Of a stretch of DNA of 64,000 nt, positions 8,860-23,696 are shown piece by piece. The stretch is from Betaproteobacteria bacterium (GTDB lineage Bacteria; Pseudomonadota; Gammaproteobacteria; Burkholderiales; Burkholderiaceae_C): contig JANNFE010000166.1 of assembly GCA_031379415.1 (NCBI GenBank), positions 156-64,155 on the forward strand, given 5' to 3'. The notes beneath the pieces were generated by a model, which did not search any database, was not told where the DNA came from, and saw nothing but the letters and a program-made list of their open reading frames with translations. Both the position numbers and the translations under genes were made by a program. The first letter of the stretch is position 1. Each line of letters opens with the position of its first letter.

Positions 8860-8872
<13 letters not shown>

Positions 8873-9618
8873 TCGGCGGCCAGCGCCAGGGCCCGGCTGC
8901 AAGCCTGCAGGGCGCGCAGGTCGGGAATGAGGATGACCCGTCGGCCGCGTTCACCAAAGCCGATGACGCCGCAGCGCACCAGCGCGGCCAGCGCCCGGCT
9001 CACCGATTCAAGCCGCATGCCCAGATGGTTGCCGATGTCGGCGCGTGTCAGCGGCAGGCGCACGCGGTCGGTTCGCTGGCCGCTGCCGGCCAGGGCCTCG
9101 GCCCAGCCGCACAGGAATTCGGCCACGCGTGCCGGCGCCGGCAAGGTGCAGCGCGACAGCATGGCGTCACGCCCGACGCGGATGGCGCGGCTCATCTCGT
9201 GCTGCACGCTGGCCGTGAGCGCGGCGCTGGACGTGCAGGCCGCCAGCAGGTCGTCGTGGCGCAGCGCCCAGACCTCGCCGACGTCCAGCGCCACGGCCTC
9301 GCAGCCGTAGCGGCCGGTGGCGATGCCGTCGAAGCCCAGCCAGTCACCGCGCACCTGCACACCCACCAGCTGCTGGCGGCCGTCGGCCGTGGTGTTGACG
9401 AGCTTGAAGGCGCCGGCATGGATGATGTAGAGCTGCACGAAGGGCAAACCGGCGCCGCACAGCACGTCGCCGGCGTGCACACGCTGCACGCGCACACGCA
9501 GCGCGCCGGCCAGCAGCCGCAGCATGTCACCGATGCGGTCGACGCCGAAGGCCGGCACGAAAGGCTCGCAAGGCGCCGCCGCGACGAGATGCAGTGCGAC
9601 AGCATTCGTTCGTGGCAT
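8860..9618 (-). CDS. Crp/Fnr family regulator lacking the N-terminal Fe-S cysteine cluster (FixK/DNR-like)
   Basis: cNMP-binding fold (G.FKLV..DGRQQLVG...GDWLGFDGI), HTH LTRADIGNHLGMRLESVSR; only one N-terminal Cys; alternative start at 9636. Confidence 0.85.
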
Positions 9619-9675
9619 GGATGTCCTTGGCTGCACGGGCGAAGCCGCATCTTGGGCGACACGCCGCAGCGAATC

Positions 9676-9719: not shown

Positions 9720-10328
9720 TCAGCGACGCTCGGGCAGCGCGAAGCGTGCGCGCTGCTCGGCGCGTTCGACGGCGGCTGCGAGCGCCGCGCGACGCACGTC
9801 ACCGGGCGCCAGCTGCGCCAGCAGGCGCTGCCAGTGGCGCGCCGCGGTGGCCGGATCCTGGCGCTCCCAGGCGGCGCTGCCGGCCAGGTCAAGCGCGCGC
9901 GCATGGTCGGGCGCGAGCGCGAGGGCCCGGCCCACCAGCGCTGCGGCTTCGCCGCGCAGCGTGCCGCCATCGGCCAGGCCGCGGGCCTCTGCATAGTCCA
10001 GCCACACCTCGGGGTCGCCGGCCACCCGGGGGCTGGCGGCCACGGCACGCTGGAAAGCCGCCGCCGCAGCCTGGTGGCGTTCGGCGCGCAGTTCCAGACG
10101 GGCCTTCAACACCAGGGCGCGCGCATCGTCGGGCTGGCGTCTCAGGTGCGCGTCGAGCCCCGCCAGGGCCTCAGGGCTGGCGGCGGCACCACCGTCGGCG
10201 GCGGCCTGCAGCAGCTCGGCGCTCAGCGCCAGGCGGTCGCCGCGTGCGGCATCGGGCTCACCCTGCAGGGCGTACAGGCCGCCGGCCGCGGCCAGCACAC
10301 CGGCAGCCAATGCAGCTTGCAGTCTCAC
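9720..10328 (-). CDS. CcmI/CycH/NrfG-like TPR protein for cytochrome c maturation
   Basis: N-terminal TM (AALAAGVLAAAGGLYALQG), TPR helices L..HL...PDDARA.VL.AR, W.DYAEA...G.L.GEA..L..RAL.L.P.H.RAL.LAG.AA.E; GTG start overlaps the nrfA stop (GTGA). Confidence 0.8.
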   Translation of the reverse strand: MRLQAALAAGVLAAAGGLYALQGEPDAARGDRLALSAELLQAAADGGAAASPEALAGLDAHLRRQPDDARALVLKARLELRAERHQAAAAAFQRAVAASPRVAGDPEVWLDYAEARGLADGGTLRGEAAALVGRALALAPDHARALDLAGSAAWERQDPATAARHWQRLLAQLAPGDVRRAALAAAVERAEQRARFALPERR

Positions 10329-11953
10329 TTGACCGGCCGCCGCTTGGCCATGGCGTCGTCCAGCAGCTTGATGCCGGCCTGCGCGGCCACCATGCTCTTG
10401 TTCAGCGATTCCTCGGCCTGCTGCGGGTTGTGGAAGTAGCTGCCGTTGGAGGCCGACCACCATTCCCAGTTGACATGCGCTTCCTGGTGGCGGCTGCGCA
10501 CCGCGTCGAGCTCGCCGCCGTCCACGCCCAGGTTCTGCGCCGCCTCGAACTTGTCGATCAGCCGCACCAGCCAGTACTCCGCCTTGCGCATCTTGCCGAC
10601 CCACTTGTTCTTCAGCGAGTCGATGCTGTAGACGGCCTGCTTCTCGGTCCAGCCCTTGTGGCAGGTGAGGCAGGTCTCCTGAATGTAGTGGCGCGGCGAG
10701 GTCTGCCAGTGCGAGGTGTAGGTCTTGCCGGTCTTGGCGTCCTTCATCTTCGGCATGTGGCAGCCGCTGCACTCCACGCCCTGCTTCTGGTGCGTGCTGT
10801 TGTAGAAGACCTCGGCGTCGGGGTGCTGGCCCTTCCACAGCATGGCGTCGGTGATGGCGTGCTTGAAGTCGCCGAACTTCAGGTCCTTGTAGTGCTGCTG
10901 CACCTGCGTCACGTCCTTCAGCGGGAAGTGGTTGGTGCGGCCGTCGGCCATGCCGATGGGCTGGCCGGTGGCGGTGTCGGTGCCGGGGTTGCAGTTGTAT
11001 TCCACATGGCACTGCGCGCACTGCAGCTTCACGTCGTAGCGGCTGAGCATGGCGATCTTGCGCGTGTAGCCGCGTTCGCCCATGTCCTTGACCTCGATCT
11101 TCGCGCCCTTCGGGTCCTGGTGCCACAGCGTGTCGGCCTCGGGGCGCGTCAACGCCTGGATCAGCGCGTCACGGATGATGCGCGGCCGCGCCGAGTGCGG
11201 GTCGTGGCAGAAAATGCAGTTCAACGAGTGGTTGGTGTCCTTGACGAACTCGTTGACCTTGGACAGCCGGCTCCATTTCGCCTTGGGCTCGGGGTCGCCC
11301 AGGTAGGCCCAGTCGAGGATGTGGTCGGCCGACTTGCACGACATGCACACCGGGTTGGCGGCCGCCGCGGTGCCGGGCTTGAAGGCCTTGTGCGGCTCGC
11401 CGGGGTACTGGTCGTCCAGCACGTCCCAGATCCTGAACTCGCCGCCCATGCGCGTCAGCCCGGCCTTGCCCTGGCGGTTCTGGAAGCGGCCGCCGAAGGC
11501 GCGGTCCACCACCACCTGGTCATACAGCGCGAAGGCGTGCGAGCGCGGCTCGTTGTGTTCGCGCGTGAAGCCGTGCGGGGCCAGCAGCTTGTCGAAGGCA
11601 CCGCCGGTGGCCACCGCCTTTTCCTTGTGCGCGGTCTTGTCGGTGTTCATCGTGTACAGCGTGCGGAACTGGTTCTCGTGGCAGCCGCCGCAGTTGCCGG
11701 AGTCGGTCTTCGTCGTCGGCCGGCCCTTGCCCTTGGGCTTGTGCGTGTCCAGGCCGCCGTGGCAGGCATCGCAACCCACGGTCTTGTGCGCGCTGCCGGC
11801 GTGGAAGGCCTTGACCTCCTGGTGGCAGTCGTAGCAGTCGGTGGCGTCGTAAGGCTTCGCCTTGTTCTGCGCGGCAGCCGGAGCGCCCGCCAGCAGCAGG
11901 GCGCAGGCGGCAAGCAGGCACGCCAGTGCCGTCCTCACGATGGGGTGGATCAT
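10325..11953 (-). CDS. nrfA: Octaheme cytochrome c nitrite reductase (ONR/TvNiR type, NrfA superfamily)
   Basis: Seven CxxCH (CYDCH, CDACH, CGGCH, CIFCH, CAQCH, CSGCH, CLTCH) plus catalytic CMSCK; EPRSH Arg, HVEYNC Tyr/Cys, KGQHPD His, HGS-equivalent SNGSYFHNP; signal peptide; AGGAG SD. Confidence 0.9.
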   Translation of the reverse strand: MIHPIVRTALACLLAACALLLAGAPAAAQNKAKPYDATDCYDCHQEVKAFHAGSAHKTVGCDACHGGLDTHKPKGKGRPTTKTDSGNCGGCHENQFRTLYTMNTDKTAHKEKAVATGGAFDKLLAPHGFTREHNEPRSHAFALYDQVVVDRAFGGRFQNRQGKAGLTRMGGEFRIWDVLDDQYPGEPHKAFKPGTAAAANPVCMSCKSADHILDWAYLGDPEPKAKWSRLSKVNEFVKDTNHSLNCIFCHDPHSARPRIIRDALIQALTRPEADTLWHQDPKGAKIEVKDMGERGYTRKIAMLSRYDVKLQCAQCHVEYNCNPGTDTATGQPIGMADGRTNHFPLKDVTQVQQHYKDLKFGDFKHAITDAMLWKGQHPDAEVFYNSTHQKQGVECSGCHMPKMKDAKTGKTYTSHWQTSPRHYIQETCLTCHKGWTEKQAVYSIDSLKNKWVGKMRKAEYWLVRLIDKFEAAQNLGVDGGELDAVRSRHQEAHVNWEWWSASNGSYFHNPQQAEESLNKSMVAAQAGIKLLDDAMAKRRPVK

Positions 11954-12066: not shown

Positions 12067-12080
12067 TTGATGCATGTCAA
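12067..12080. promoter_or_regulatory. FNR box TTGAT-GCAT-GTCAA
   Basis: One mismatch to consensus, upstream of nrfA and overlapping the ccmF stop codon. Confidence 0.7.
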
Positions 12081-14014
12081 GCCGGCGATGTGTGACGGGC
12101 GGCCACGGGCTGCAGGCCGCGCCGCTGCGCGCGGCGGCCGGCCACGGCCAGCAGGCCGCCACCGGCCATCAGGGCGCAGCCGCCCCAGATCCAGCCCACC
12201 AGCGGCTTGTGCTGCAGGCGCAGCGTCCAGACGCCCTGGCCAAGGTCATCACCCAGCGTGACGTAGAGGTCGCCGAGCCAGCCGCTGGCGATGGCGGCTT
12301 CGGTCATGGCCAGTTGGGGCGTGGCGTAGTAGCGGCGCTTCTCGGGCTGCAGCGGCGGCAGGTGGCGGCCGTCGCGCGCCACGGCCACGGTGGCTCGGGT
12401 GGCCTGGTAGTTGGGCCCGGCATGCTGCATCACGCCTTGGAAGGTGAAGGCATGCCCGGCCAGCCAGGCGGTGTCGCCTGGGGCCATGCGCACGTCGGCT
12501 TCGCTCTGATGGCTGCGCACCCAGGTCACGCCCGTCACGAACACGGCCACACCCAGGTGGGCCAGCAGCATGCCCCACGCCCCCACGCCGCGGCGCGGCC
12601 GCTGGCGCACGGCCACGCCGGCCACCAACGCCACCCAGGCCGCCAGCGCCAGGCCCAGCGCCGTCATCGCTGACCCGCCAACGCCAGGCACCGCCAGCGC
12701 CACGCCCAGCACCACCGCCAGGGCCAGCGCCCAGCGCAGGCGTGTCCACAGCCCTGGCAGCGTCGCACCCTGCCACTGCGCCAGCGGTGCCGCGCCCATC
12801 AGAAACAGCACCGCCACCAGCAGCGGCACGATCACCGCTTCGAAGTAGGGCGGCCCCACCGACAGGCGGCCGAGACCCATCACTTCGAACAGCAGCGGGT
12901 ACAGCGTGCCCAGCAGCACGCTGGCTGCCGCCACCGACAGCAGCGCGGTGTGCACGAGCAGCAGCCGCTCGCGCAGGGCCGGTGCCGGCGCGCGGTGCGG
13001 TGACACGAGAGCCGGCGCTCGCAGCGCGAAGAGCACCAGCGCCGCACCCACCACCAGTGCCAGGAGAACCAGGATCAGCACGCCGCGCCGCGGGTCCAGT
13101 GCAAAGGCGTGCACCGAGCTGAGCACGCCAGAGCGCACGAGGAAGGTGCCCAGCAGCGACAGCGCGAAGCAGCCGATCGCCAGCAGCACCGCCCAAACCG
13201 AGAAGGCGCCGCGGCGCGCGCTCACGGCCAAGGCGTGCACGAGCGCCGTACCCACCAGCCACGGCATGAAGGCGGCGTTTTCCACCGGGTCCCAGAACCA
13301 CCAGCCGCCCCAGCCCAGTTCACCGTAGGCCCACCAGCTGCCCAGCGCCACGCCCGCGGTGAGGCAACACCAGGCCAGCGTGGCCCAGGGCCGCGCCGCC
13401 ACGGCCCAGCCGCGGCCGGCAGCGCCGCCCAGCAAGGCGGCCATCGCGAAGGCAAAGACCACGCCGAAGCCGACATACCCCATGTAGAGCAGCGGCGGGT
13501 GCAGGACCATGCCGGGGTCCTGCAGCAGCGGGTTGAGGTCGCGCCCCTGCGCCGGCACCGGAAAGACACGCAGGAAGGGGTTGGACGCCACCAGCACGAA
13601 GCTCAGGAAGCCCGCCGCCAGCAGACCCAGCACGCCCAGCACGCGGGCGCGCATCACCGTGTCGAGGCCCGCGTTCCAGCGCAGCAAGGCCAGGGTCCAC
13701 GCCGACTGCAGCACGGCCCACAGCAGCAGCGAGCCTTCGTGCGAACCCCAGCTGGCCGCGAAGCGATAGGCCACCGGCAGCTGCGAGTTGGAGTTCTCGG
13801 CCACGTTGCGCACCGAGAAGTCGTTGTGCAGGAAAGCCAGCACCAGGCTGGCCCACGCCAGCAGCACGCACAGCGCCTGCGCGGCGGCCAGCGGCGTGGC
13901 CATCGCCATCCAATCCGCGCGGCCACGGCTGGCGCCGGCCAAGGCCAGCGTGCCCTGGCACAGCGCCAGCAGCGCGGCCAGGATGAGGACGAAGTGACCT
14001 GCCTCGGCAATCAT
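12077..14014 (-). CDS. ccmF: Heme lyase CcmF/NrfE family
   Basis: WGSHEGSLLLW, GRDLNPLLQDPGMVLHPP.LY.GY, WWD motif WGGWWFWDPVEN, GTFLVRSGVL.SVHAFA, LL.H.G; start MIAEAGHF at 14014. Confidence 0.92.
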   Translation of the reverse strand: MIAEAGHFVLILAALLALCQGTLALAGASRGRADWMAMATPLAAAQALCVLLAWASLVLAFLHNDFSVRNVAENSNSQLPVAYRFAASWGSHEGSLLLWAVLQSAWTLALLRWNAGLDTVMRARVLGVLGLLAAGFLSFVLVASNPFLRVFPVPAQGRDLNPLLQDPGMVLHPPLLYMGYVGFGVVFAFAMAALLGGAAGRGWAVAARPWATLAWCCLTAGVALGSWWAYGELGWGGWWFWDPVENAAFMPWLVGTALVHALAVSARRGAFSVWAVLLAIGCFALSLLGTFLVRSGVLSSVHAFALDPRRGVLILVLLALVVGAALVLFALRAPALVSPHRAPAPALRERLLLVHTALLSVAAASVLLGTLYPLLFEVMGLGRLSVGPPYFEAVIVPLLVAVLFLMGAAPLAQWQGATLPGLWTRLRWALALAVVLGVALAVPGVGGSAMTALGLALAAWVALVAGVAVRQRPRRGVGAWGMLLAHLGVAVFVTGVTWVRSHQSEADVRMAPGDTAWLAGHAFTFQGVMQHAGPNYQATRATVAVARDGRHLPPLQPEKRRYYATPQLAMTEAAIASGWLGDLYVTLGDDLGQGVWTLRLQHKPLVGWIWGGCALMAGGGLLAVAGRRAQRRGLQPVAARHTSPA

Positions 14015-14113
14015 GCCGGCAGGGTGGAAAGCTTCATGTCCTTGCTCCTGAAGCGGGCGCCTTCGCTTCGCAAGGCCGCAGGCGGACAATGCACATGCAT
14101 CCCGCGGTGTGAT

Positions 14114-14127
14114 TTGACTCACGTCAA
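14114..14127. promoter_or_regulatory. FNR-type box TTGAC-TCAC-GTCAA
   Basis: Perfect palindromic arms in the divergent ccmF/hemerythrin intergenic region. Confidence 0.72.
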
Positions 14128-14179: not shown

Positions 14180-14665
14180 ATGGCCAACACCAAGTTGCCT
14201 GCCACCCGCCCGCCGCACGCGGCGCGCCCTGCCCTGCCTTCGGCGCACACGCTGGACAAGACACACCACGAGGTGCTGCACCACCTGGAGCAACTGGCCG
14301 CGCTCGTGGCGCAGCTGGACGAAGCCGGCAGCACCGAGCCGCTGCGCGCGCTGGCCGCCGACATCTGCCGCTACTTCGACGGCCCGGCCCGCACCCACCA
14401 CGAAGCCGAGGAGCAGCGCCTGTTCCCGCGTCTGCAGGACCACCCCGACACCACGCTGGTGGACCATGTGCGCCGCCTGCAGCAGGAGCATGGCTGGCTG
14501 GAAGACGAGTGGCTGGAACTCGGCCCGCAGCTGCAGGCCGTGGCGCGCGGCTTCACCTGGGCCGATGCCGAAGCGCTGCGCCTGGCGGTGCCGGCCTTCA
14601 CGCAGCTCTACCGCGAGCACATTGCGCTGGAAGAGGCCATCGTCTACCCCGCCGGCAAGGCCTGA
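14180..14665 (+). CDS. Hemerythrin-like (HHE) domain protein
   Basis: H..(THHEV), HH..EE..LFP.L, L.QEH, Y.EHI.LEE..VYP diiron-binding pattern; ATG at 14180. Confidence 0.85.
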   Translation: MANTKLPATRPPHAARPALPSAHTLDKTHHEVLHHLEQLAALVAQLDEAGSTEPLRALAADICRYFDGPARTHHEAEEQRLFPRLQDHPDTTLVDHVRRLQQEHGWLEDEWLELGPQLQAVARGFTWADAEALRLAVPAFTQLYREHIALEEAIVYPAGKA

Positions 14666-16647
14666 GCCACCAGCTCGGCGATGTCGCGTGACTGTGCGCT
14701 GGCGCCTTCGATGGCGCCCAGGCCGTCGGCCATCATCACCGCGCAATAGGGGCAGGCGGTGGCGATGATGGCCGGTGCAGCCGTCAGCGCCTGCTGCACA
14801 CGGGCCACGTTGATGCGCGTGCCGATGTTCTCTTCCAGCCACATGCGCCCGCCGCCGGCGCCGCAGCACATGGCCTTCTCGCGCGACAGCGCGAACTCCA
14901 GCGGCGCGTCGCTGCACAAGCGCTGCAGCACGGCGCGCGGCGCGTCGAACTCGCCGTTGTGGCGGCCCAGATAACAGGGGTCGTGAAAGATCACGCGCTG
15001 CAACCGCCGCTGAACCTGGATGCGACCCTGCGCCATGAGCTCGGCGATGAGCTGCGTGTGGTGCAACACCTCGTAGTGGCCGCCGAACTCGGGGTACTCG
15101 TTGCGCAGCGTGTTGAAGGCATGCGGGTCGCAGGTGACGATGCGCTTCACGCCCAGCTCGTTCAAGGTCTGCACCAGGCCGCCCGCCAATTGCTGGAACA
15201 GCAGCTCGTTGCCCAGCCGCCGCACACATTCGCCGGTAGAACCTTCACGCGGCCCCAGCACGCCGAAGCGCAGCCCGGCGTGCTGCAGGATGCTGACGAA
15301 GGCGCGCGCGATCTTCTGGCCGCGCGGGTCGAAGGACATCGCCGAGCCGACGTAGAACAGCAGCTCCAGGCCCTCGGCATCGGCCTTCGTGCGCACCACC
15401 GGCACGCCCAGGCCTTGCGCCCAGTCGCCGCGCTGCGATGACTGCAGGCCCCAGGGGTTGCCCTGGGCTTCGTAGGCCTCGAAGAGCTTCTTCAGCTCGT
15501 GCGGAAACTGGCCCTCGATCATCACCTGGTGCTGGCGCAGGCGGAAGAACTTGTCCAGGTGCTCCAGCTCGATGGGGCAGGCCGCTTCGCAATAGCCGCA
15601 GGTGGTGCAGGCCCACAAGGTCTCGGGCGCGATGACCGTGCCCACCAGCGCCGGCAACTCGCCCTGGGGATCGTGCGCGACGATGCGTGCGCGCTCGGCC
15701 AGCAGGTGGTGCTTCAGGCTGTCGTTGACCATCTTCAGCGACAGCGGCTTGCCCGTCAGGTGCGTGGGGCAGGCGTCCTTGCAGCGGCCGCACTCGGTGC
15801 AGGTGAAGGCGTCCAGGCCCTCCTTCCAGTTCAGGTCGAGCGCGGTGCGCGCACCGGCGCGCATCTCGGCCTCGTCGGTGGCGGCCATGAGCTGCTCGAT
15901 ATCGACACGCGGCACCCGGTGGGCCGGCCGGCCGCGCCGGAAGAAGAGCGCCGGCAGGGCGGTGACGATGTGGAAGTGCTCGCCTGCCGGCAGCAGCACC
16001 AGGAAGCTGAACACGGTGAGCATCTGCAGCCAGTAGGCCAGCACCATGCCGGTGGCCTGCGCGCCCGGCGACAACCCCTGCAGCGCCTGCGCCACCGCCG
16101 CACCGGCAAAGGCCCAGTCGCGTTCATGCGCGATGCCCGGCACGCTGCCGGCCCGCTGCAGGAAGCGCAGGCCGTCGAAGGCCAGGTCGGTGAGCATGAT
16201 GGCCAGGATCAGGCCCAGCACCCCCAGCGCCTCGCGGTTGCGCTCCAGCCGCGCCGGGTGCTGCACCAAACGGCGGTGCAGGGCGTAGAGCACGGCGGCC
16301 GTGACGGCCAGCTCCACGGCATCCTTGAAGGCCGCGAAGGGCCCACCGAAGGCCGGCGGGAAGACGAAGTCGACATCCCAGCCGATGGCGATGAGCTGGA
16401 TCTTGCGCAGCAGCAGTGACAGGAAGCCGATGAAGATCACCGTGTGCATGAGCCCCGGCCGCCACTCGCGCCGCAGCATGCGCTGCTGCAACAGGCCGTT
16501 GAGCAGCACGCTCTGCAGGCGCGCGCCCGGGTGGTCGGTGCGCTGCACCGGCTGCAGCGCACGCACGATGCCCAGCTTGCGCCAGGCCAGGGCGCAAAAG
16601 CCCGCCAGGGCCAGCAGCATCAGCAGCGTGAGCGCGGCGGGTCCCAT
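14644..16647 (-). CDS. Membrane-bound Fe-S oxidoreductase, FadF/heterodisulfide reductase (HdrE/D)-like
   Basis: NarI-like TM part (G.MH..IF.GF, H...A), CTECGRCKDACP and CTTCGYCEAACP clusters, C-terminal CCG domain (HDPCYLGR, MCCGAGGG, TACPYC). Confidence 0.85.
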   Translation of the reverse strand: MGPAALTLLMLLALAGFCALAWRKLGIVRALQPVQRTDHPGARLQSVLLNGLLQQRMLRREWRPGLMHTVIFIGFLSLLLRKIQLIAIGWDVDFVFPPAFGGPFAAFKDAVELAVTAAVLYALHRRLVQHPARLERNREALGVLGLILAIMLTDLAFDGLRFLQRAGSVPGIAHERDWAFAGAAVAQALQGLSPGAQATGMVLAYWLQMLTVFSFLVLLPAGEHFHIVTALPALFFRRGRPAHRVPRVDIEQLMAATDEAEMRAGARTALDLNWKEGLDAFTCTECGRCKDACPTHLTGKPLSLKMVNDSLKHHLLAERARIVAHDPQGELPALVGTVIAPETLWACTTCGYCEAACPIELEHLDKFFRLRQHQVMIEGQFPHELKKLFEAYEAQGNPWGLQSSQRGDWAQGLGVPVVRTKADAEGLELLFYVGSAMSFDPRGQKIARAFVSILQHAGLRFGVLGPREGSTGECVRRLGNELLFQQLAGGLVQTLNELGVKRIVTCDPHAFNTLRNEYPEFGGHYEVLHHTQLIAELMAQGRIQVQRRLQRVIFHDPCYLGRHNGEFDAPRAVLQRLCSDAPLEFALSREKAMCCGAGGGRMWLEENIGTRINVARVQQALTAAPAIIATACPYCAVMMADGLGAIEGASAQSRDIAELVAQALPAG

Positions 16648-16665: not shown

Positions 16666-17655
16666 TCAGTACCGGCCGTGCGTCTTGTAGACGTAGTTGG
16701 CCAGCTCGGTGGCCTGCACCGACAGCCGCTTCTGCACCTGGTGAACGGCACGCACGATGGCGCACATCACGCGGTAGAGGATGCGCGGCTCGGTGTCGAG
16801 CAGGCTCTCGAGCCGATCGCGTTCCAGCAGCAGCACGCGTGCGTCGGTGGTGGCCACGAGCGAGGCATAACGCGGCGCGCCATCGAGGAAGCCGAGCTCG
16901 TGTGCCAGGTCACCCGCCACCAGCGTGGCCAGCAGGCTCTCTTCCGGCTGGCCGCGCGACTTCACCACACCCAGCGTGCCTTCCAGCACCACATACAGGC
17001 GCTGGTCGGCCGTGCCTTCCAGCGCCAGCAGGTGGCCGGCGGGCAGCACCTGCAACTGCATCAGGCCGGCCAGCGTGGCCGCCTGCTCGGGCGTGAGCTG
17101 CTCGGCCAGGCGGCAGCCGCGCACGGCGTCGAGCAGGGCGGTGTCAGGGGTGGGCATGGCAGTCTCCCTTGGAGTGATGGGTCTGGGCGCGGCTGCGGCC
17201 ACCGCCACCGGCAGCTTGCGGTCGCAGGGCAGCAGCGTCTCTTCGGCGCGCCGGATGAAGGACGCCACGATGGCGCGCGACACCGCTTCCACCGCCGGCA
17301 GCGCCAGGCGGTCGAGCAGGCCGTCGGCCATCTCGTAGGCCATCTCGAAAGTGATCTTGCAGCCCTGGTCGCCCAGCTGGCGCAACTGCCAGTCGCCCTG
17401 GAAGCGCTTGAACGGCCCTTCCACCAGACGCACCTGCAGCCATTCGGGCCGGCGCTTGGGGTTGCGCGTGGAAAAGGCGAAACGCAGCTGGTGGTAGCTG
17501 AAGTCCAGCCGCGCGGCCACCCACTCGTCGCTGCGCTCCAGGATGCGCGCGCCGCTGCAGAAGGGCAGGAAATGCGGGTAGTGCTCGGCGCCCTCGATGA
17601 GGTCGAACATGTCCTCCGCCGAGTAGGGCACGAGCAGACTGCGCTTGAACTCCAA
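16666..17655 (-). CDS. In-frame fusion of Coq10/RatA-type START domain and a cNMP-binding domain
   Basis: TTG start with AAGGAG SD; RS.LVPYSAE.MFDL....E.YP.FLP.C and GPFK...G.W START motifs; second half LYVVLEG.L.V...G.L..E.GFLDG.PR.A cNMP motif; a second SD plus ATG at 17157. Confidence 0.75.
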   Translation of the reverse strand: MEFKRSLLVPYSAEDMFDLIEGAEHYPHFLPFCSGARILERSDEWVAARLDFSYHQLRFAFSTRNPKRRPEWLQVRLVEGPFKRFQGDWQLRQLGDQGCKITFEMAYEMADGLLDRLALPAVEAVSRAIVASFIRRAEETLLPCDRKLPVAVAAAAPRPITPRETAMPTPDTALLDAVRGCRLAEQLTPEQAATLAGLMQLQVLPAGHLLALEGTADQRLYVVLEGTLGVVKSRGQPEESLLATLVAGDLAHELGFLDGAPRYASLVATTDARVLLLERDRLESLLDTEPRILYRVMCAIVRAVHQVQKRLSVQATELANYVYKTHGRY

Positions 17656-18734: not shown

Positions 18735-19358
18735 ATGAACGAGCCGCAGAACCCAGGTGCCCTGCGCCGCTTCATGCGCTGGCTGTTCACGCCGTCGGCG
18801 CGCTGGTCGCTGTTCACGCTGTTGCTGGTGGGTGGCGTGGCTGGCGCGGTGGCGGTCATCGGCACGCAGGTGGCGGTGCATATCACCGGCACCGACGAGT
18901 TCTGCGGCAACGCCTGCCACTCGCACGCCAAGTTCGTGTTCCCTGAGCACAAGACCTCGGCGCACTACAACAACCGCACCGGCGTGCGTGCCCTCTGCGT
19001 GGACTGCCACCTGCCGCACACCTACCCGGCCAAGCTCTTTGCCAAGGCCAAGGCCGGCATCAAGGACGGGCTGGCCGAGCTGCGCGGCACCATCGCCACG
19101 CAGGAGAAGTTCGAGCGTGAGCGCTGGCGCATGGCCAACATCGTGTGGGACGAGATGAAGGAGAACAACTCCGCCAACTGCCGCAGCTGCCACGACCCCG
19201 CCGCCTGGGACGCCAAGAAGCAGAGCGAAGACGCCACCAAGGCGCACAGGAAGTTCAGCGCGGGCAAGGCCACGTGCATCGAGTGCCACACCGGCGTGGC
19301 CCACAAGGAACCCGAAGAACCCAAGGCGCCTGCCATGGCAGCGTCTGCACCGGGCTGA
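18735..19358 (+). CDS. napC: NapC/NirT/CymA family tetraheme quinol dehydrogenase
   Basis: N-terminal TM, T.TDEFCGNACH, H..NRTGVRA.CVDCHLPH, NSANCRSCH, TCIECH.GVAH. Confidence 0.9.
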   Translation: MNEPQNPGALRRFMRWLFTPSARWSLFTLLLVGGVAGAVAVIGTQVAVHITGTDEFCGNACHSHAKFVFPEHKTSAHYNNRTGVRALCVDCHLPHTYPAKLFAKAKAGIKDGLAELRGTIATQEKFERERWRMANIVWDEMKENNSANCRSCHDPAAWDAKKQSEDATKAHRKFSAGKATCIECHTGVAHKEPEEPKAPAMAASAPG

Positions 19359-19489
19359 GTGCACCGCGAAGCGCAGGTCCGCCGTGCCTGCAGGGGACCG
19401 GTGGCGCAGCCATCTGCAGATCTTCTTGTGTCAGCACGTGTTGCGCGTTATTTTTGTGATTGGTGACTTCCCTTGGCCCACCAGCAACA

Positions 19490-19503
19490 CTGATGTGAAT
19501 CAA
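19490..19503. promoter_or_regulatory. FNR box CTGAT-GTGA-ATCAA
   Basis: One mismatch; in an AT-rich promoter patch upstream of mtrC. Confidence 0.7.
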
Positions 19504-19624
19504 CTTTTGCAGCAGGCTCGCTTGTAGATTGGCCTGCCGAAGACGAGACGTCCCGCGGGAATGCGTGCACCGCATCACCGCCGAAGCGCGCCGCGTCGGG
19601 CCGCACACATCGAGGAGAACATTC

Positions 19625-22402
19625 ATGAAGCAACGCCGCTGGATGGGATGTATCGCCTCGGGCCTGATGGCCGCCGTGCTGGCGGCCTGCGGCGGCAGCG
19701 GCGACACCGGCCCCGCCGGGCCCAACGGGCCTGCCGGCCCGGCCGGACCTGCCGGACCTGCGGGCCCGTCAGGACCTGCGGGCCCCGCAGGCCCTTCCGG
19801 TTCCGGCGGCGGCGCGACATTCGCCGTGGGCAGCAATGCGCTCACCAACACCAGCGCCATCACCGCCAATGCGGCGGCCTGGTCGGCGCTGGAGCCCGTG
19901 GTCACCATCACCAGCGTCACCATCACCGACAAGCCGGTGGTCAACTTCATGGTCAAGGACGGCTTCGGCCGCGCCGTCACCGGCCTGGGCAATACCAGCA
20001 AGTCGGCCACGGCGACGGCGGCCAGTCTGCCCAACCTGGCCTTCGCGCTGGCCAAGCTGCTGCCCGGCAGCAACGGCAGCCCCAGCAAGTGGGTGAGCTA
20101 CATCGTCACCACGGTGCCCAGCACCACCACGGCAGCGGCTCCCACGCGGCCCAGCACCGACAGCACGGGCACGCTGGTGGACAACGGCGACGGCAGCTAC
20201 CGCTACACCTTCTACCGCGACATCACGCAGGTCAAGACGCAGGTCGACGGCATGACGGTGAGCGGCACCAACAACAAGGCCGATCTCGGCGATCTCAGCT
20301 ACAACGCCAACCTCACGCACCGCTTGACGCTGCAGCTGTCCGGCAACGCACCCGCCACGGGCAGCAACACGCCCACCGGCGCCGCCTCGGCCGTGGCCGC
20401 GGTGCCGATGAAGAAGCCGGTGGACGTGATCTACGACTTCATCCCCTCCGCGGGCCGCGCGGTGACCAGCGCCGATGCCCAGCGCGACATCGTGGCCAAC
20501 GCCAAGTGCGAGGAATGCCACCGCAAGCTGGGCGGCATACCGGGCCTGAGCGAGGAGGCGGCCGCTGCCGGCTTCCACGGCGGCAGCCGCAACAACGTGC
20601 AGTACTGCACCGTCTGCCACACCGAGCAGCGCCGCTATGGCCGCGCCGAAGCCACGGCCACCACCAACGGTGCCATCAAGACCTTCACGAGCAGCTCCTA
20701 CGTGCTGGACAACCGCACCATCGGCGACCTGCCCAACTACATCCACAAGGTGCACGCCGGCCCGCTGCTGGCCCACAAGAACTACGACTACGGCGGCGTG
20801 GGCTTCAACGAGACCACCTATCCGCAGGACCTGCGCAACTGCACCAAGTGCCACGACGGCTCCACCACGTCCACTGCGAAGACGCTGCAGGGCGACAACT
20901 GGAAGAATGCGCCCAGCGCCAAGGCCTGCGGCTCCTGCCACGACGGCATCAACTTCGCCACCGGCACCGGCGTGCGCATGGCCGACGCCGTCAAGGGTCT
21001 GACCACCAGCGCCTTCGCCCACCCGGCCGGCCCGCAGGCCGACGACGCGCTGTGCGCGCTGTGCCACAAGCCCGACGTCATCGACGTCACCCACCTGCCG
21101 GTGACGCCGCCCAACCTGGCCAGTGCGCTGCACGTGGCCGGCGGCAACGCCAACAGCAACGCGGCCTGGATCGCTTCCAACGTGGCGCGCCTGCCCGCGG
21201 GTGCCATCGTCGTCACCTACGACGTGAAGACCGTCTCGCGCAACGCCGGCAAGCAGCCGGTGATGGTCTTCCGCATGCTGCAGAACGGCGCGCGCAAGGA
21301 CCTCAACGCCAACACCGCGGCAGAGCTGTGGGACGGCTACACCGGCGCGCCGAGCGTGTACTTCGTGTTCGCGGTGCCGCAGGACGGCATCGTCGCACCG
21401 GCCGACTTCAACGCCACCGCCTCGGTCTACCTGAAGACACTGTGGAAAGGCACGGGCACCGGCACCGCCGCCGGCACGCTGACCGGCCCCGACGCCGACG
21501 GCTACTACACCGCCACGCTGACCGGCGTGCAGGTGCCCGACAGCGCGAAGATGCTGACCGGCGGTCTGGGCTACTCCTACAACGTATCGAGCGCCCTGCC
21601 ACTGACGCAGACCAACCTGGCCGACTACCCCCTCACCGCCACCACGGTGCCCGGGCAGAGCAACCCGACCGGCGGCCTGATCGTCATTGCGCCCAACGTG
21701 CAGAAGGTGGCCACCGGCTACACGGGCCGGCGCGCCATCGTCACCGACGCCCGCTGCAACGCCTGCCACCAGGAGCTGGGCGCCTTCACCGAGGAAGCGT
21801 TCCATGGCGGCCAGCGCAACGACGCCACCACCTGCAGCTGGTGCCACACGCCCAACCGCGCCAGCAGCGGCTGGTCGGCCGACTCCACCAGCTTCATCCA
21901 CGCCACGCACGCGGCGGCCAAGCGCACGGTGGACTACAACTGGCATGCCGTGTCGGCCACCGAGGGCTTCTGGAAGATCGGCTACCCCGGCATCCTGAAC
22001 CAGTGCGAAACCTGCCACCTGCCGGGCACCTACGACTTCAGCGCCACGGCGTCGGCGGCAGCCATGGACAACCGGCCCTACCGCACGGTAGCCAGCGGCA
22101 CCTTGAGTCCATCGGTGTCGACCTCGCCCTACGTCAACACCGGCGTGAACTACGGCAGCGGCTACAGCTTCAATGCGGGCACCGGCGTCATTGCCGATGC
22201 CGCCGCCACGACGCTGGTGACCTCGCCCACGGCCACGGCCTGCTTCGCCTGCCACGACAGCAACCAAGCGGTGTCGCACTACAGGATCAACGGTGGTTCG
22301 ATCTACGCACCGCGCAGCACGGCGCTCGGCACCACCGAGACCTGCATGGTCTGCCACGGCCCCGGGCGCGTGGCCGAGATCAAGGCCTCGCACGCGAAGT
22401 GA
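19625..22402 (+). CDS. mtrC: OmcA/MtrC family decaheme outer-membrane lipoprotein cytochrome
   Basis: Lipobox LAAC; ten CxxCH in two groups of five separated by beta domains (GTLVDNGDGSY.YTF, RDIVA..KC, YPQD.RNCTKCH, RR.IV...RCNACH); GAGGAG SD. Confidence 0.92.
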   Translation: MKQRRWMGCIASGLMAAVLAACGGSGDTGPAGPNGPAGPAGPAGPAGPSGPAGPAGPSGSGGGATFAVGSNALTNTSAITANAAAWSALEPVVTITSVTITDKPVVNFMVKDGFGRAVTGLGNTSKSATATAASLPNLAFALAKLLPGSNGSPSKWVSYIVTTVPSTTTAAAPTRPSTDSTGTLVDNGDGSYRYTFYRDITQVKTQVDGMTVSGTNNKADLGDLSYNANLTHRLTLQLSGNAPATGSNTPTGAASAVAAVPMKKPVDVIYDFIPSAGRAVTSADAQRDIVANAKCEECHRKLGGIPGLSEEAAAAGFHGGSRNNVQYCTVCHTEQRRYGRAEATATTNGAIKTFTSSSYVLDNRTIGDLPNYIHKVHAGPLLAHKNYDYGGVGFNETTYPQDLRNCTKCHDGSTTSTAKTLQGDNWKNAPSAKACGSCHDGINFATGTGVRMADAVKGLTTSAFAHPAGPQADDALCALCHKPDVIDVTHLPVTPPNLASALHVAGGNANSNAAWIASNVARLPAGAIVVTYDVKTVSRNAGKQPVMVFRMLQNGARKDLNANTAAELWDGYTGAPSVYFVFAVPQDGIVAPADFNATASVYLKTLWKGTGTGTAAGTLTGPDADGYYTATLTGVQVPDSAKMLTGGLGYSYNVSSALPLTQTNLADYPLTATTVPGQSNPTGGLIVIAPNVQKVATGYTGRRAIVTDARCNACHQELGAFTEEAFHGGQRNDATTCSWCHTPNRASSGWSADSTSFIHATHAAAKRTVDYNWHAVSATEGFWKIGYPGILNQCETCHLPGTYDFSATASAAAMDNRPYRTVASGTLSPSVSTSPYVNTGVNYGSGYSFNAGTGVIADAAATTLVTSPTATACFACHDSNQAVSHYRINGGSIYAPRSTALGTTETCMVCHGPGRVAEIKASHAK
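19699..19800 (+). repeat. 9-bp-period repeat encoding collagen-like Gly-X-Y linker (GDT GPA GPN GPA GPA GPA GPA GPS GPA GPA GPS)
   Basis: ggccccgccgggcccaacgggcctgccggcccggccggacctgcc... directly after the lipidated Cys of MtrC. Confidence 0.85.
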
Positions 22403-22404
22403 CG

Positions 22405-22707
22405 ATGCGACACCGGCGCTTCTATGGACTGGCCCTGACATGGCTTGCCTTTGCAGCCGCGCAGGGCGCGGCCTGGGCTGCCCCGCAGGCATCAGCGACG
22501 CTGGTCGACATCAACAGCGCCAGCCGCCAGCAACTGCAGACGCTGCCCGGCGTCGGCGCGGCCGAGGCCGCCCGCATGGTTGCCGGCCGGCCCTACCTGA
22601 GCAAGGCTGAACTGGTGACCCGGCGGGTGCTGGCCACCGGGCCCTACCTGTCGCTGAAGAACCGTATCGTGGCCCTGCAGCCGGCTGCACCCCCGCGGCG
22701 GAAGTGA
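22405..22707 (+). CDS. Exported ComEA-like helix-hairpin-helix protein
   Basis: Signal peptide; LVDINSAS..QLQTLPGVG.A.A.R.VA.RPY.SK.ELV.R.VL HhH motif; 2 bp after the mtrC stop, stop abuts the mtrA ATG. Confidence 0.85.
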   Translation: MRHRRFYGLALTWLAFAAAQGAAWAAPQASATLVDINSASRQQLQTLPGVGAAEAARMVAGRPYLSKAELVTRRVLATGPYLSLKNRIVALQPAAPPRRK

Positions 22708-23667
22708 ATGGACATCCGCCATGCCTTCTGTGTCGGTCTGGTGCTGCTGGGCAGCCTGGCGGGATGCACACCCGCCGCGGCGCAGACCCCGGCCGCCGAC
22801 AGCGGCCCCGGCACTGAATACAGTGAGAAAGGTGCCGACACCTGCCTGGAGTGCCACGACGACGAGACGCCGGGCTACTCAGGCTCGGCCCTCTTCAAGG
22901 GCCGCCACGCCCACCGCGCCGACCCGCGTGCGCCCTTCGGCGCGGGCGGCCTGCAGTGCGAGGCCTGCCACGGCCCCGGCGGCCGCCACGCCGCCAAAGG
23001 CAGCAAGAAGAAGCTGACCATCAACAGCCTGAAGGCCGACTCCTTCCTGCCCGTGGCCGCGCGCAACCAGAGTTGCCTGGCCTGCCACCAGAACCAGGCC
23101 CGCAGCGCCTGGCACGCGGGTGCGCATGAACGCGGCAAGCTGGCCTGCACCGACTGCCACAAGATGCACGTGGAGAGCGACGCCGTACTCGTCAAGGCCA
23201 GCGAAGCCGCCGTGTGCTTTGCCTGCCACAAGCAGCAGCGCGCCGACTTCCACAAGACCTCGTCGCACCCGGTGCAGGGCGGCCGCATGAGCTGCAGCGA
23301 CTGCCACAACGCCCATGGCACGGTGGCCGCGGCCAGCCTGGTCAAGCCGACGCTGAACCAGACCTGCACCACCTGCCACGCCGACAAACGCGGCCCCAAG
23401 CTGTGGGAGCACGCGCCGGTGGCCGAAGACTGCGCGCTGTGCCACACGCCGCATGGTTCGGTGCGCCAGGCCATGCTCACCAAGAGCCCGCCGCAGCTGT
23501 GCCAGCAGTGCCACACGGCAGCGGGCCATCCTTCGGTGGCGCGCGGCGGCAACTCGCTGCCGGGTGGCAGCGGCAGCGCCATCTTTGCCGTGGCCGGCGG
23601 CTGCAGCAACTGCCACTCGGCGGTGCACGGCTCCAACCATCCCTCGGGCGCCAAGCTCATGCGCTGA
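22708..23667 (+). CDS. mtrA: DmsE/MtrA/MtoA family periplasmic decaheme cytochrome
   Basis: Ten CxxCH; YS.KGADTCL.CHD, LQCEACHGPG..H, S.HPV..G.MSCSDCHN.HG, KRGP.LWEHAPV.EDC..CH.PHGS, HGSNHPSG. Confidence 0.93.
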   Translation: MDIRHAFCVGLVLLGSLAGCTPAAAQTPAADSGPGTEYSEKGADTCLECHDDETPGYSGSALFKGRHAHRADPRAPFGAGGLQCEACHGPGGRHAAKGSKKKLTINSLKADSFLPVAARNQSCLACHQNQARSAWHAGAHERGKLACTDCHKMHVESDAVLVKASEAAVCFACHKQQRADFHKTSSHPVQGGRMSCSDCHNAHGTVAAASLVKPTLNQTCTTCHADKRGPKLWEHAPVAEDCALCHTPHGSVRQAMLTKSPPQLCQQCHTAAGHPSVARGGNSLPGGSGSAIFAVAGGCSNCHSAVHGSNHPSGAKLMR

Positions 23668-23696
23668 AGCGCAGCACCCCGCACCCGGACGCCACC

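What the first reader, a model, noticed from the sequence alone, without database searches (positions are those of the whole stretch)
10325..11953. Octaheme (not pentaheme) nitrite reductase with the Tyr-x-Cys crosslink motif in a betaproteobacterium
Seen: 7 CxxCH plus CMSCK (11333-11347), three extra N-terminal hemes ahead of the NrfA-like core, and QCHVEYNCNPG (10991-11020) where pentaheme NrfA has HVEYY. Known: Thioalkalivibrio TvNiR is an octaheme enzyme with a thioether bond between the catalytic Tyr and the Cys two residues later, and reduces nitrite and sulfite. Inference: DNRA (possibly also sulfite or NO reduction) via an ONR in a lineage where this is rarely reported; standard pipelines would label it plain nrfA.
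Basis: partly seen in the sequence, partly recalled or inferred. Interest (0 to 1): 0.7.

Follow-up and report, generated by a model that had tools for sequence, protein, structure and literature searches.

The report
Octaheme nitrite reductase, ordinary family member
The gene encodes a textbook member of the known eight-heme nitrite-to-ammonium reductase family (the TvNiR type); it sits with its own heme-attachment helper genes in a Rubrivivax-like freshwater-sediment bacterium, and hundreds of related betaproteobacterial genomes carry close copies that pipelines label as plain NrfA.

Summary
Window 10325-11953 (-) encodes a 542-aa secreted cytochrome with seven CxxCH motifs, one CMSCK and CHVEYNC. 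It aligns end to end with solved octaheme nitrite reductases (8RV0 1.5e-149, TvNiR 2.7e-146). Pentaheme NrfA matches only its C-terminal part (~1e-23). All TvNiR active-site and Ca-site residues are present and invariant in 122 relatives. In a tree it falls inside the ONR clade.

It is flanked by a second CcmF paralog (NrfE-like) and a translationally coupled CcmI/NrfG-like TPR gene. An FNR-type box lies 120 bp upstream, and 43 of 74 related loci have such a box. A Crp/Fnr regulator follows.

The genome has NarG and NirB but no NapA, NirS, NirK or pentaheme NrfA. The best reading is periplasmic nitrite ammonification, giving NarG + ONR DNRA.

It is not rare genomically. At least 594 species genomes hold relatives, and the 80 nearest are almost all Burkholderiales. 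The family was defined by 2016 and already included a betaproteobacterium. Verdict: new member of a known kind, low interest. Activity, the Tyr-Cys bond, the hexamer and the electron donor remain untested; a CymA gene 6.8 kb away is only a candidate donor.

The parts
10325..11953 (-). onr: octaheme cytochrome c nitrite reductase (542 aa), TvNiR/ONR family
   Evidence: A GGAGGAG Shine-Dalgarno lies 7 nt before the ATG at 11953.
11870..11953 (-). Sec-type signal peptide (residues 1-28, predicted AAA|QN cleavage), so the protein is periplasmic
   Evidence: By inspection of the translation. Relatives have an equivalent hydrophobic N-terminus ending in AQA/AQT. No signal-peptide predictor was run.
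11369..11869 (-). N-terminal triheme domain (hemes 1-3: CYDCH 11822-11836, CDACH 11759-11773, CGGCH 11678-11692); it also holds catalytic Arg151 (11501-11503)
   Evidence: Pfam c3/c554-type hits are at residues 32-97. This part is absent from the NrfA alignments.
11333..11347 (-). CMSCK: binding motif of catalytic heme 4 with the Lys207 proximal ligand (= TvNiR Lys188)
   Evidence: The residue is invariant in 122 sequences.
10658..11218 (-). Hemes 5-8 of the NrfA-like core: CIFCH 11204-11218, CAQCH 11006-11020, CSGCH 10757-10771, CLTCH 10658-10672
   Evidence: Pfam PF02335 covers residues 179-537.
10991..11002 (-). Glu318-Tyr319-Asn320-Cys321: Ca-site Glu, catalytic Tyr and the Cys that forms the thioether with it in TvNiR (E302/Y303/C305)
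   Evidence: aligned to the TvNiR residues and invariant in 122 sequences. The bond itself was not tested.
10823..10834 (-). Lys374-Gly-Gln376-His377: Ca-site Lys and Gln and catalytic His (TvNiR K358/Q360/H361)
12067..12080 (.). FNR/Dnr-type box TTGATGCATGTCAA, centred 120 bp upstream of the onr ATG and overlapping the nrfE stop codon
   Evidence: An equivalent box (at most 1 mismatch) lies upstream of onr in 43 of 74 related loci, against 0.0085 expected per 450 bp.
12077..14014 (-). nrfE-like gene: second CcmF-family heme lyase subunit, likely dedicated to the CxxCK heme. The true start is probably the ATG at 14014, not the GTG at 14122.
   Evidence: NCBIfam TIGR00353 scores 652 bits (cut-off 569) and TIGR03145 NrfE scores 675 bits (below its 927 cut-off); Pfam finds CcmF_C. 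The family match starts at residue 37, and relatives start MIPEIGHF. The housekeeping CcmF is elsewhere on contig C81, at 52% identity.
9720..10328 (-). CcmI/CycH/NrfG-like TPR protein (202 aa, N-terminal membrane helix). Its GTG start overlaps the onr stop (GTGA), which indicates translational coupling.
   Evidence: Pfam TPR_CcmH_CycH scores 50 bits (cut-off 42). The NrfG hit is weak. The sequence was read. A homolog lies directly downstream of onr in 72 of the 80 related loci.
8860..9636 (-). Crp/Fnr-family regulator without the FNR N-terminal Cys cluster, but with an E-x-x-S-R (ESVSR) recognition helix
   Evidence: Pfam cNMP_binding plus HTH_Crp_2; NCBIfam Fnr scores 77.7 bits, below its 228 cut-off. 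The helix motif was read from the translation. Binding to the boxes is inferred.
14114..14127 (.). Second FNR-type palindrome TTGACTCACGTCAA, in the divergent region between nrfE and the hemerythrin-like gene
14180..14665 (+). Hemerythrin (HHE) domain protein, 161 aa, divergent from nrfE
   Evidence: Pfam PF01814, 4.9e-16. A homolog is in the same position in L002, L008, L020 and L022.
18735..19358 (+). CymA-like NapC/NirT tetraheme quinol dehydrogenase at the head of an mtrCAB cluster. It is a candidate electron donor to ONR, not a demonstrated one.
   Evidence: Pfam PF03264, 3.5e-55; NCBIfam napC_nirT/TorC. It is the only NapC/NirT-type protein found in the multiheme scan of the genome. Only 5 of 25 ONR genomes have a close ortholog, and 14 have no family member at all.

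Best explanation
The gene encodes a periplasmic octaheme cytochrome c nitrite reductase of the TvNiR/ONR family.

Shown. It has a Sec signal peptide. Three N-terminal bis-His-type heme motifs precede an NrfA-like five-heme core. The first heme of that core is bound by CMSCK, so Lys207 is its proximal ligand. The full TvNiR active site and Ca site are present: Arg151, Tyr319, Cys321, His377, Glu318, Lys374 and Gln376.

Inferred by homology to TvNiR and to the T. ammonificans enzyme. Nitrite binds the Lys-ligated heme 4 and is reduced by six electrons to ammonium. Tyr319 is thioether-linked to Cys321 and acts as proton donor. The other seven hemes serve as a wire and electron store. The protein probably forms a hexamer.

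Maturation (inferred from context). The general Ccm system on another contig attaches the seven CxxCH hemes. The adjacent second CcmF paralog (NrfE-like) and the translationally coupled CcmI/NrfG-like TPR protein attach heme to CxxCK, as NrfEFG does in E. coli.

Regulation (inferred). FNR-type boxes upstream of onr and of nrfE are read by an FNR-family regulator, perhaps the Cys-less one encoded downstream. This would switch the genes on under low oxygen or N-oxide conditions.

Physiology (inferred from gene inventory). NarG makes nitrite, and no NirS, NirK, NapA or pentaheme NrfA is present. ONR is therefore the only periplasmic nitrite reductase, and NarG + ONR constitutes DNRA. The electron donor is unknown. 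The nearby CymA-type quinol dehydrogenase is one candidate and a bc1/soluble cytochrome c route is another.
For: Full-length phmmer matches to solved ONRs are 8rv0 1.5e-149 and 2ot4 2.7e-146, whereas NrfA chains reach only 1e-15 to 1e-24 over residues ~304-535. Identity is 46% to TvNiR and 48% to 8RV0. All eight catalytic and Ca-site residues align and are invariant in 122 sequences. All 120 nearest database homologs have 7 CxxCH plus 1 CxxCK. The ML tree places it inside an ONR clade with SH-aLRT 100, together with TvNiR and 8RV0 and apart from pentaheme NrfA.

The NrfA equivalog models are far below cut-off: 122.8 against 595 bits and 104.9 against 692.5 bits. The NrfE-like, TPR and Crp/Fnr neighbours are identified. 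The TPR gene is downstream in 72 of 80 related loci, and NrfE or a whole ccm operon lies upstream in many. The housekeeping ccmF/G/I genes are on contig C81.

The FNR box lies 120 bp upstream of onr and is conserved in 43 of 74 loci, against a background of 0.0085. In the own genome NarG is present (1064 bits, split by contig ends) and NirB is present. There is no NapA, NirS or NirK, and only one ONR/NrfA-like gene. 18 of 25 ONR-bearing relatives also lack both NirS and NirK.

Metatranscriptome contigs 85-95% identical cover the onr gene in four independent environments. ONR is a proven in vivo ammonifying nitrite reductase in T. ammonificans, according to PMC12142623 and PMC11972089.
Against: No biochemical or expression data exist for this organism, which is a 430-contig metagenome-assembled genome from freshwater sediment. 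Absence of NirS, NirK or NapA could reflect the ~3% of the genome that is missing. NarG is itself split over contig ends.

There is no NrfF/CcmH-like gene in the operon. The NrfE match is below the NrfE-specific cut-off and the NrfG match is weak, so the dedicated CxxCK-lyase role is an analogy.

No conserved redox partner was found. CymA-type genes are missing from 14 of 25 ONR genomes. In some organisms NrfA-type enzymes detoxify rather than respire (PMC12285233). The transcript contigs come from relatives, not from this organism, and may contain DNA.
Confidence: 0.8

Rival explanations
1. The enzyme is the same ONR, but its role is detoxification. It would scavenge nitrite, NO or hydroxylamine leaking from NarG activity or from neighbouring organisms, without supporting growth by DNRA.
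For: A hemerythrin-domain gene is divergently adjacent and shares an FNR-type box. The local Crp/Fnr regulator lacks the O2-sensing Cys cluster and so could be a Dnr/NnrR-like N-oxide sensor. No dedicated quinol-oxidising partner is in the operon. Cytoplasmic NirB is also present and can dispose of nitrite. NrfA is a detoxifier in some bacteria (PMC12285233).
Against: ONR alone sustains respiratory DNRA in T. ammonificans. The organism has respiratory NarG and no other periplasmic nitrite reductase. 18 of 25 relatives show the same ONR-without-NirS/NirK pattern. The two roles are not mutually exclusive.
Confidence: 0.15
2. The physiological substrate is sulfite (to sulfide) rather than nitrite.
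For: TvNiR and TvPaR also reduce sulfite, hydroxylamine and peroxide in vitro (PMC5433712).
Against: Sulfite is a side activity in the characterised ONRs. The active site here is identical to that of the nitrite-reducing enzymes. The context is NarG, FNR boxes and heme lyase genes, with no sulfur genes seen in the 6-18 kb region. Dedicated octaheme sulfite reductases (MccA) belong to a different clade (PMC9250108).
Confidence: 0.03
3. It is an ordinary pentaheme NrfA, as pipelines label its relatives, and the extra CxxCH motifs are non-functional or the product of a mis-called fusion.
For: Pfam Cytochrom_C552 matches, and database names of relatives read 'cytochrome c-552'.
Against: The N-terminal triheme part aligns residue by residue with solved ONRs. 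All 120 homologs keep the 7+1 motifs. NrfA equivalog models score 5-6 fold below their cut-offs. The tree separates it from NrfA with SH-aLRT 99-100.
Confidence: 0.01

Closest known systems
TvNiR / TvPaR, octaheme nitrite reductases of Thioalkalivibrio nitratireducens and T. paradoxus (PDB 2OT4, 3SXQ and others)
   Same: It has the same 7 CxxCH + 1 CxxCK order. Arg, Tyr-x-Cys, His, the Lys ligand and the Ca-site residues sit in aligned positions. The alignment is full length at 46% identity (E 2.7e-146). Both lie in the same tree clade.
   Different: The host is a neutrophilic freshwater-sediment Burkholderiales bacterium, not a haloalkaliphilic gammaproteobacterium. The protein is Lys-rich (46 Lys), like the non-halophilic ONRs described in PMC5433712. 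The hexamer and the Tyr-Cys bond were not verified here.
Octaheme nitrite reductase PDB 8RV0/8RVM/8RXU (I believe this is TaNiR of Trichlorobacter ammonificans; the organism was not given by the tool) and GsNiR of Geobacter
   Same: It is the best PDB match (E 1.5e-149, 48% identity) and has the identical CAQCHVEYNCNPGT active-site stretch. TaNiR is the only ONR with a shown in vivo DNRA role, in an organism that, like this one, has no pentaheme NrfA.
   Different: In Trichlorobacter the ONR gene lies next to nap genes and works with periplasmic Nap. Here there is no NapA. The nitrate reductase is NarG, and the gene neighbours are heme-lyase genes.
E. coli NrfA with NrfEFG
   Same: Both have a CxxCK catalytic heme, the C-terminal four hemes and the HVEY / QH active-site elements. 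Both have a dedicated CcmF paralog (NrfE) plus a TPR protein (NrfG) next to the reductase, and both are under FNR-type control.
   Different: This protein has three extra N-terminal hemes and a Cys two residues after the catalytic Tyr. There are no NrfB/C/D or NrfH partner genes and no NrfF. NrfA equivalog models are not met.
Shewanella CymA-to-NrfA electron route (from my own knowledge, not tested here)
   Same: A CymA-type NapC/NirT quinol dehydrogenase is encoded 6.8 kb away, at the head of mtrCAB. The genome has no NrfH.
   Different: The linkage is loose and not conserved: 14 of 25 ONR genomes have no NapC/NirT homolog. This is a hypothesis only.

Membership tests
ONR (octaheme nitrite reductase, TvNiR family; defined in PMC5433712) | [quoted passage not shown] | tested here: met
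   All 120 nearest homologs have the same count.
ONR (octaheme nitrite reductase, TvNiR family; defined in PMC5433712) | Active-site Tyr, Arg and Cys (plus His) at the TvNiR positions | tested here: met
   R151, Y319, C321 and H377 align with TvNiR R131, Y303, C305 and H361 and are invariant in 122 sequences.
ONR (octaheme nitrite reductase, TvNiR family; defined in PMC5433712) | More than 40% identity and a full-length alignment to TvNiR | tested here: met
   46% identity over 502 columns. phmmer aligns query 32-535 to chain 6-518, E 2.7e-146.
ONR (octaheme nitrite reductase, TvNiR family; defined in PMC5433712) | Placement inside the ONR clade, apart from pentaheme NrfA | tested here: met
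   The ONR clade has SH-aLRT 100 and includes 2OT4 and 8RV0; NrfA-like rows fall outside. This was a quick search with several long branches among the outgroups.
ONR (octaheme nitrite reductase, TvNiR family; defined in PMC5433712) | Ca2+ site near the active site (Glu, Lys and Gln ligands) | tested here: met
   E318, K374 and Q376 align with TvNiR E302, K358 and Q360. Assigning these residues to the Ca site rests on my knowledge of the TvNiR structure.
ONR (octaheme nitrite reductase, TvNiR family; defined in PMC5433712) | Covalent Tyr-Cys thioether actually formed | not testable with these tools
   Only the two residues can be seen. Testing needs mass spectrometry or a crystal structure.
ONR (octaheme nitrite reductase, TvNiR family; defined in PMC5433712) | Stable homohexamer | not testable with these tools
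   No multimer modelling was done, and interface residues were not analysed.
ONR (octaheme nitrite reductase, TvNiR family; defined in PMC5433712) | [quoted passage not shown] | not testable with these tools
   Needs an enzyme assay or 15N tracing.
Pentaheme NrfA (NCBIfam NF008339 / TIGR03152 equivalogs) | Score above the curated cut-off, with a five-heme architecture | tested here: not met
   122.8 bits against a 595 cut-off and 104.9 against 692.5. The protein has eight heme motifs.
NrfEFG-type CxxCK heme lyase | NrfE: a CcmF paralog dedicated to the reductase | tested here: inconclusive
   The CcmF/NrfE family model is met (652 against 569). The NrfE-specific TIGR03145 scores 675, below its 927 cut-off. 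It is a second copy beside the housekeeping CcmF on C81 and is adjacent to onr.
NrfEFG-type CxxCK heme lyase | NrfF (CcmH-like thiol-redox subunit) in the cluster | tested here: not met
   No such ORF lies between 8860 and 14665. A CcmI/H-like hit lies in the general ccm cluster on C81, beside ccmF and ccmG.
NrfEFG-type CxxCK heme lyase | NrfG: TPR protein | tested here: inconclusive
   Pfam TPR_CcmH_CycH scores 50 bits against a 42 cut-off. The NrfG equivalog scores only 22.6 against 306. Its position downstream of onr is conserved in 72 of 80 loci.

The most novel reading that the evidence does not exclude
The ONR may be wired through the neighbouring CymA-type quinol dehydrogenase into the same electron network as the adjacent MtrCAB outer-membrane conduit. 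A Rubrivivax-like phototroph could then couple extracellular electron uptake, from Fe(II), minerals or a cathode, or quinol oxidation to nitrite ammonification. That would be an iron-linked DNRA module inside an FNR-controlled 'anaerobic respiration island'.
Probability: 0.1. Interest if true: 0.6.

Novelty: new member of a known kind. Interest (0 to 1): 0.25.

Why it matters
The value is modest and mostly practical.

(1) ONRs are annotated as plain NrfA or 'cytochrome c-552'. Surveys of DNRA potential therefore cannot tell eight-heme from five-heme enzymes, and genome papers can miss the gene altogether, as happened for the cultured Rubrivivax sp. A210.

(2) In this genome, and in 18 of 25 related ONR carriers, no NO-forming nitrite reductase is present. 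A sizeable set of Burkholderiales from sediment, soil and wastewater are therefore probably nitrate ammonifiers that retain nitrogen, not denitrifiers.

(3) The conserved onr-TPR pair, the frequent NrfE/ccm linkage and the conserved FNR box give a recognisable gene-cluster signature for ONR loci.

None of this changes what is known about the enzyme family.

Tried and rejected
Pentaheme NrfA was rejected.

A lipoprotein reading of the signal peptide (LAAC at residues 14-17) was rejected. The Cys is not conserved in relatives, which end in AQA/AQT.

The longer GTG start of nrfE at 14122 was rejected in favour of the ATG at 14014.

CymA as a general ONR partner was not supported: no CymA or Mtr gene lies within 6 kb of onr in the 80 loci, and 14 of 25 ONR genomes have no NapC/NirT homolog.

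A HemY-like FAD oxidoreductase lies next to the onr-TPR pair in 23 loci but has no homolog in this genome, so it is not part of the system here.

Literature searches for ONR in Burkholderiales, Rubrivivax, Rhodoferax or Ramlibacter found no paper that holds the enzyme term together with one of these taxa. The T. ammonificans paper (PMC10504241) is not held, and nothing cites 8RV0, so the organism of that PDB entry is stated from memory.

RNA runs hold only 5-8% of the gene's words. They show transcripts of relatives, not of this organism.

Structure prediction was not run. With 46-48% identity to solved structures over the full length it would add nothing, and it cannot show hemes or the crosslink.
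Full report
**Observation**

The minus-strand ORF 10325-11953 translates to 542 aa without stops. A motif scan finds seven CxxCH motifs at residues 40, 61, 88, 246, 312, 395 and 428, and one CMSCK at residues 203-207. CHVEYNC lies at 10991-11011. Everything else holds. Of 19 cysteines, 16 are in heme motifs, one is the Cys of Tyr-Asn-Cys, and two are in the signal peptide. A GGAGGAG ribosome-binding site precedes the ATG.

**What it is**

phmmer against all PDB chains aligns the protein from residue ~32 to ~536 with solved octaheme nitrite reductases. 8RV0 gives E 1.5e-149. TvNiR 2OT4 and its many other entries give ~3e-146, and TvPaR 3SXQ gives 3.8e-145. Pentaheme NrfA structures match only residues ~304-535, with E between 1e-15 and 1e-24. 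Pfam sees the NrfA domain only over residues 179-537, with c3/c554-type hits in the N-terminal 100 residues. NCBI's NrfA equivalog models score 5-6 fold below their cut-offs.

A three-way alignment gives 46% identity to TvNiR and 48% to 8RV0. TvNiR Arg131, Lys188, Glu302, Tyr303, Cys305, Lys358, Gln360 and His361 map onto Arg151, Lys207, Glu318, Tyr319, Cys321, Lys374, Gln376 and His377. All eight are invariant across 120 database homologs plus the two structures. All 120 homologs have the 7+1 motif count.

I built a maximum-likelihood tree from 40 ONRs taken from named genomes, diverse 50%-cluster representatives, the two PDB sequences and pentaheme NrfA-like outgroups. It puts the window protein inside an ONR clade with SH-aLRT 100. 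Within that clade it sits in a large clade made up almost entirely of Burkholderiales. Its nearest neighbours are Rubrivivax, Aquabacterium and Ramlibacter MAGs, at up to 82% identity.

The features that PMC5433712 uses to define the ONR family are all met. These are seven CXXCH plus one CXXCK, the active-site Tyr, Arg and Cys, and more than 40% identity.

**Surroundings**

*Heme lyase paralog.* Directly upstream lies a CcmF-family gene. It scores 652 bits on the CcmF/NrfE model and 675 bits on the NrfE model, the latter below that model's 927 cut-off. Its real start is most likely the ATG at 14014. It is a second copy: the housekeeping ccmF, ccmG and ccmI/H genes are on contig C81.

*TPR gene.* Directly downstream lies a 202-aa membrane-anchored TPR protein of the CcmH/CycH/NrfG type. 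Its GTG start overlaps the onr stop codon (GTGA).

*Regulator and hemerythrin.* A Crp/Fnr-family regulator follows. It has no FNR cysteine cluster but does have an ESVSR recognition helix. A hemerythrin-domain gene is divergent from nrfE.

*Conservation across loci.* In 80 related loci, a TPR homolog lies directly downstream of onr in 72. An NrfE-like gene is directly upstream in the nearest relatives. In a second group of loci, ccm genes (ccmC, E, F, G and I seen in L031) precede onr.

By analogy with E. coli NrfEFG, the paralog pair most likely attaches heme to the CxxCK site. No NrfF is present, so membership in 'NrfEFG' is only partial.

**Regulation**

An FNR-type box, TTGATGCATGTCAA, is centred 120 bp upstream of the onr ATG. 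It overlaps the nrfE stop codon. A second palindrome, TTGACTCACGTCAA, lies in the divergent nrfE/hemerythrin region. Such boxes are enriched in the window: 17 matches against 3.4 expected. More tellingly, 43 of 74 related loci have a box with at most one mismatch within 450 bp upstream of the start of the onr match. The background expectation is 0.0085 per 450 bp. Control by an FNR-family regulator is therefore a conserved trait of this ONR clade. Which regulator binds is inferred, not shown.

**Physiology**

The window belongs to a 5.16-Mb assembly of 430 contigs, 97% complete. The same DNA is found in freshwater-sediment metagenomes. The genome has one ONR gene and no pentaheme NrfA.

- NarG is present: 1064 bits on a contig end and 240 bits on another.
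- There is no true NapA (best 149 bits against a 930 cut-off).
- There is no NirS and no NirK.
- NirB is present next to a NasA-like gene.

ONR is thus the only periplasmic nitrite reductase found, and NarG + ONR makes a DNRA pathway. The same pattern holds more widely. Of 25 ONR-bearing relatives, 4 have NirS, 3 have NirK and 18 have neither.

ONR as the sole DNRA nitrite reductase has a precedent in Trichlorobacter ammonificans, as reported in PMC12142623 and PMC11972089. Metatranscriptome contigs 85-95% identical to onr occur in ice, wastewater and sediment samples and cover the onr gene preferentially. They come from relatives and are weak evidence.

**Electron donor**

No partner gene lies in the operon. 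A scan of the genome for multiheme ORFs found a CymA-type NapC/NirT cytochrome at 18735-19358. It heads an mtrC-mtrA-mtrB cluster and is followed by a nuo operon. This agrees with earlier notes of this scan on the same genome.

CymA feeding a periplasmic nitrite reductase is known from Shewanella (my own knowledge), so it is a reasonable candidate. However, only 5 of 25 ONR genomes have a close CymA ortholog and 14 have no family member at all. It cannot be the general ONR donor. The donor remains open.

**Rarity and novelty**

A back-translated pattern scan of one genome per GTDB species found at least 594 genomes with a relative. The 80 best hits (61-82% identity) are nearly all Burkholderiales/Betaproteobacteria. 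Even sampling finds the gene in 4 of 301 genomes of the same family and 14 of 401 of the same order, spread over 9 of 168 genera. The distribution is patchy, but the family is large.

In a 1.84-billion-protein representative library the whole NrfA/ONR superfamily is compact, with 79 clusters at E below 1e-30. The 2016 census already listed 64 ONRs, including the betaproteobacterium Propionivibrio.

Relatives are named 'ammonia-forming cytochrome c nitrite reductase subunit c552' or 'Cytochrome c-552'. The genome paper on the cultured Rubrivivax sp. A210, whose ONR is 75% identical, discusses narGHI and nirBD but never mentions this gene.

**Verdict**

This is a genuine, intact and probably functional ONR with a coherent maturation and regulation context. 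It is a new member of a well-described family, not a new kind of system. The in vitro side activities (sulfite, hydroxylamine), the Tyr-Cys bond, the hexamer and the in vivo role all need experiments. A cultured relative exists in which to do them.

Noticed in passing
window 18735-25787: A complete cymA-mtrC-mtrA-mtrB extracellular electron-transfer cluster lies 6.8 kb from onr and is followed by a nuo operon from ~25896. It comprises a NapC/NirT tetraheme, an OmcA/MtrC decaheme of 957 aa, a DmsE-family decaheme of 319 aa and an MtrB/PioB porin. Earlier notes of this scan already treat it.
   Followed up: partly
window, whole (e.g. 5850, 12067, 14114, 19490, 50972): FNR-type boxes (TTGAT-N4-ATCAA, up to 2 mismatches) are five-fold enriched in the window: 17 found against 3.4 expected, and no shuffle reached 17. 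The window looks like an FNR-controlled anaerobic-respiration island.
   Followed up: partly
window 14011-14037 (-): An 8-codon upstream ORF (MKLSTLPA) has a good AGGAG Shine-Dalgarno. Its TGA stop overlaps the nrfE ATG (ATGA), and nrfE itself has no obvious Shine-Dalgarno. This could be translational coupling through a leader peptide, or chance.
   Followed up: no
L031 8640-10037; also L008, L009, L010, L020, L022, L026, L027, L033, L035, L037 and others (23 loci): A HemY/protoporphyrinogen-oxidase-like FAD oxidoreductase gene lies next to the onr-TPR pair in 23 of 80 related loci. It has no homolog (E 1e-8) in this genome. It may be a heme-supply gene linked to ONR in other lineages.
   Followed up: partly
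proteins P0132, P0137, P0162, P0164 (tree): A long-branched clade nests inside the ONR clade. It keeps CxxCK but has lost the Tyr-x-Cys motif (CGQCHFGGN, CGQCHSAPN and similar) and one or two CxxCH motifs. It may be a functionally diverged ONR offshoot.
   Followed up: no
protein P0121 (713 aa): This ONR homolog (52% identity) has an extra N-terminal CxxCH, a Thr/Pro-rich linker and a ~100-aa extra domain ahead of the ONR body, giving nine heme motifs.
   Followed up: no
G469:C59:5004-8549: One genome of the same order carries two tandem ONR paralogs, 54-55% identical to the query.
   Followed up: no
window 14644-16647 (-) and 16666-17655 (-): A membrane-anchored Fe-S/CCG (HdrD/DsrK-like) protein and a RatA/Coq10 START-cNMP fusion lie upstream of the ONR cluster. 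The same two genes flank onr in L019 and L026 (Rubrivivax sp. A210), which shows conserved synteny in this subclade.
   Followed up: partly
L059, L067, L069, L043, L047 (tree): ONR contigs binned as Streptomycetaceae, Gemmatimonadota, Enterobacteriaceae or Lysobacter nest tightly among Burkholderiales sequences. These are more likely mis-binned contigs than gene transfers.
   Followed up: no
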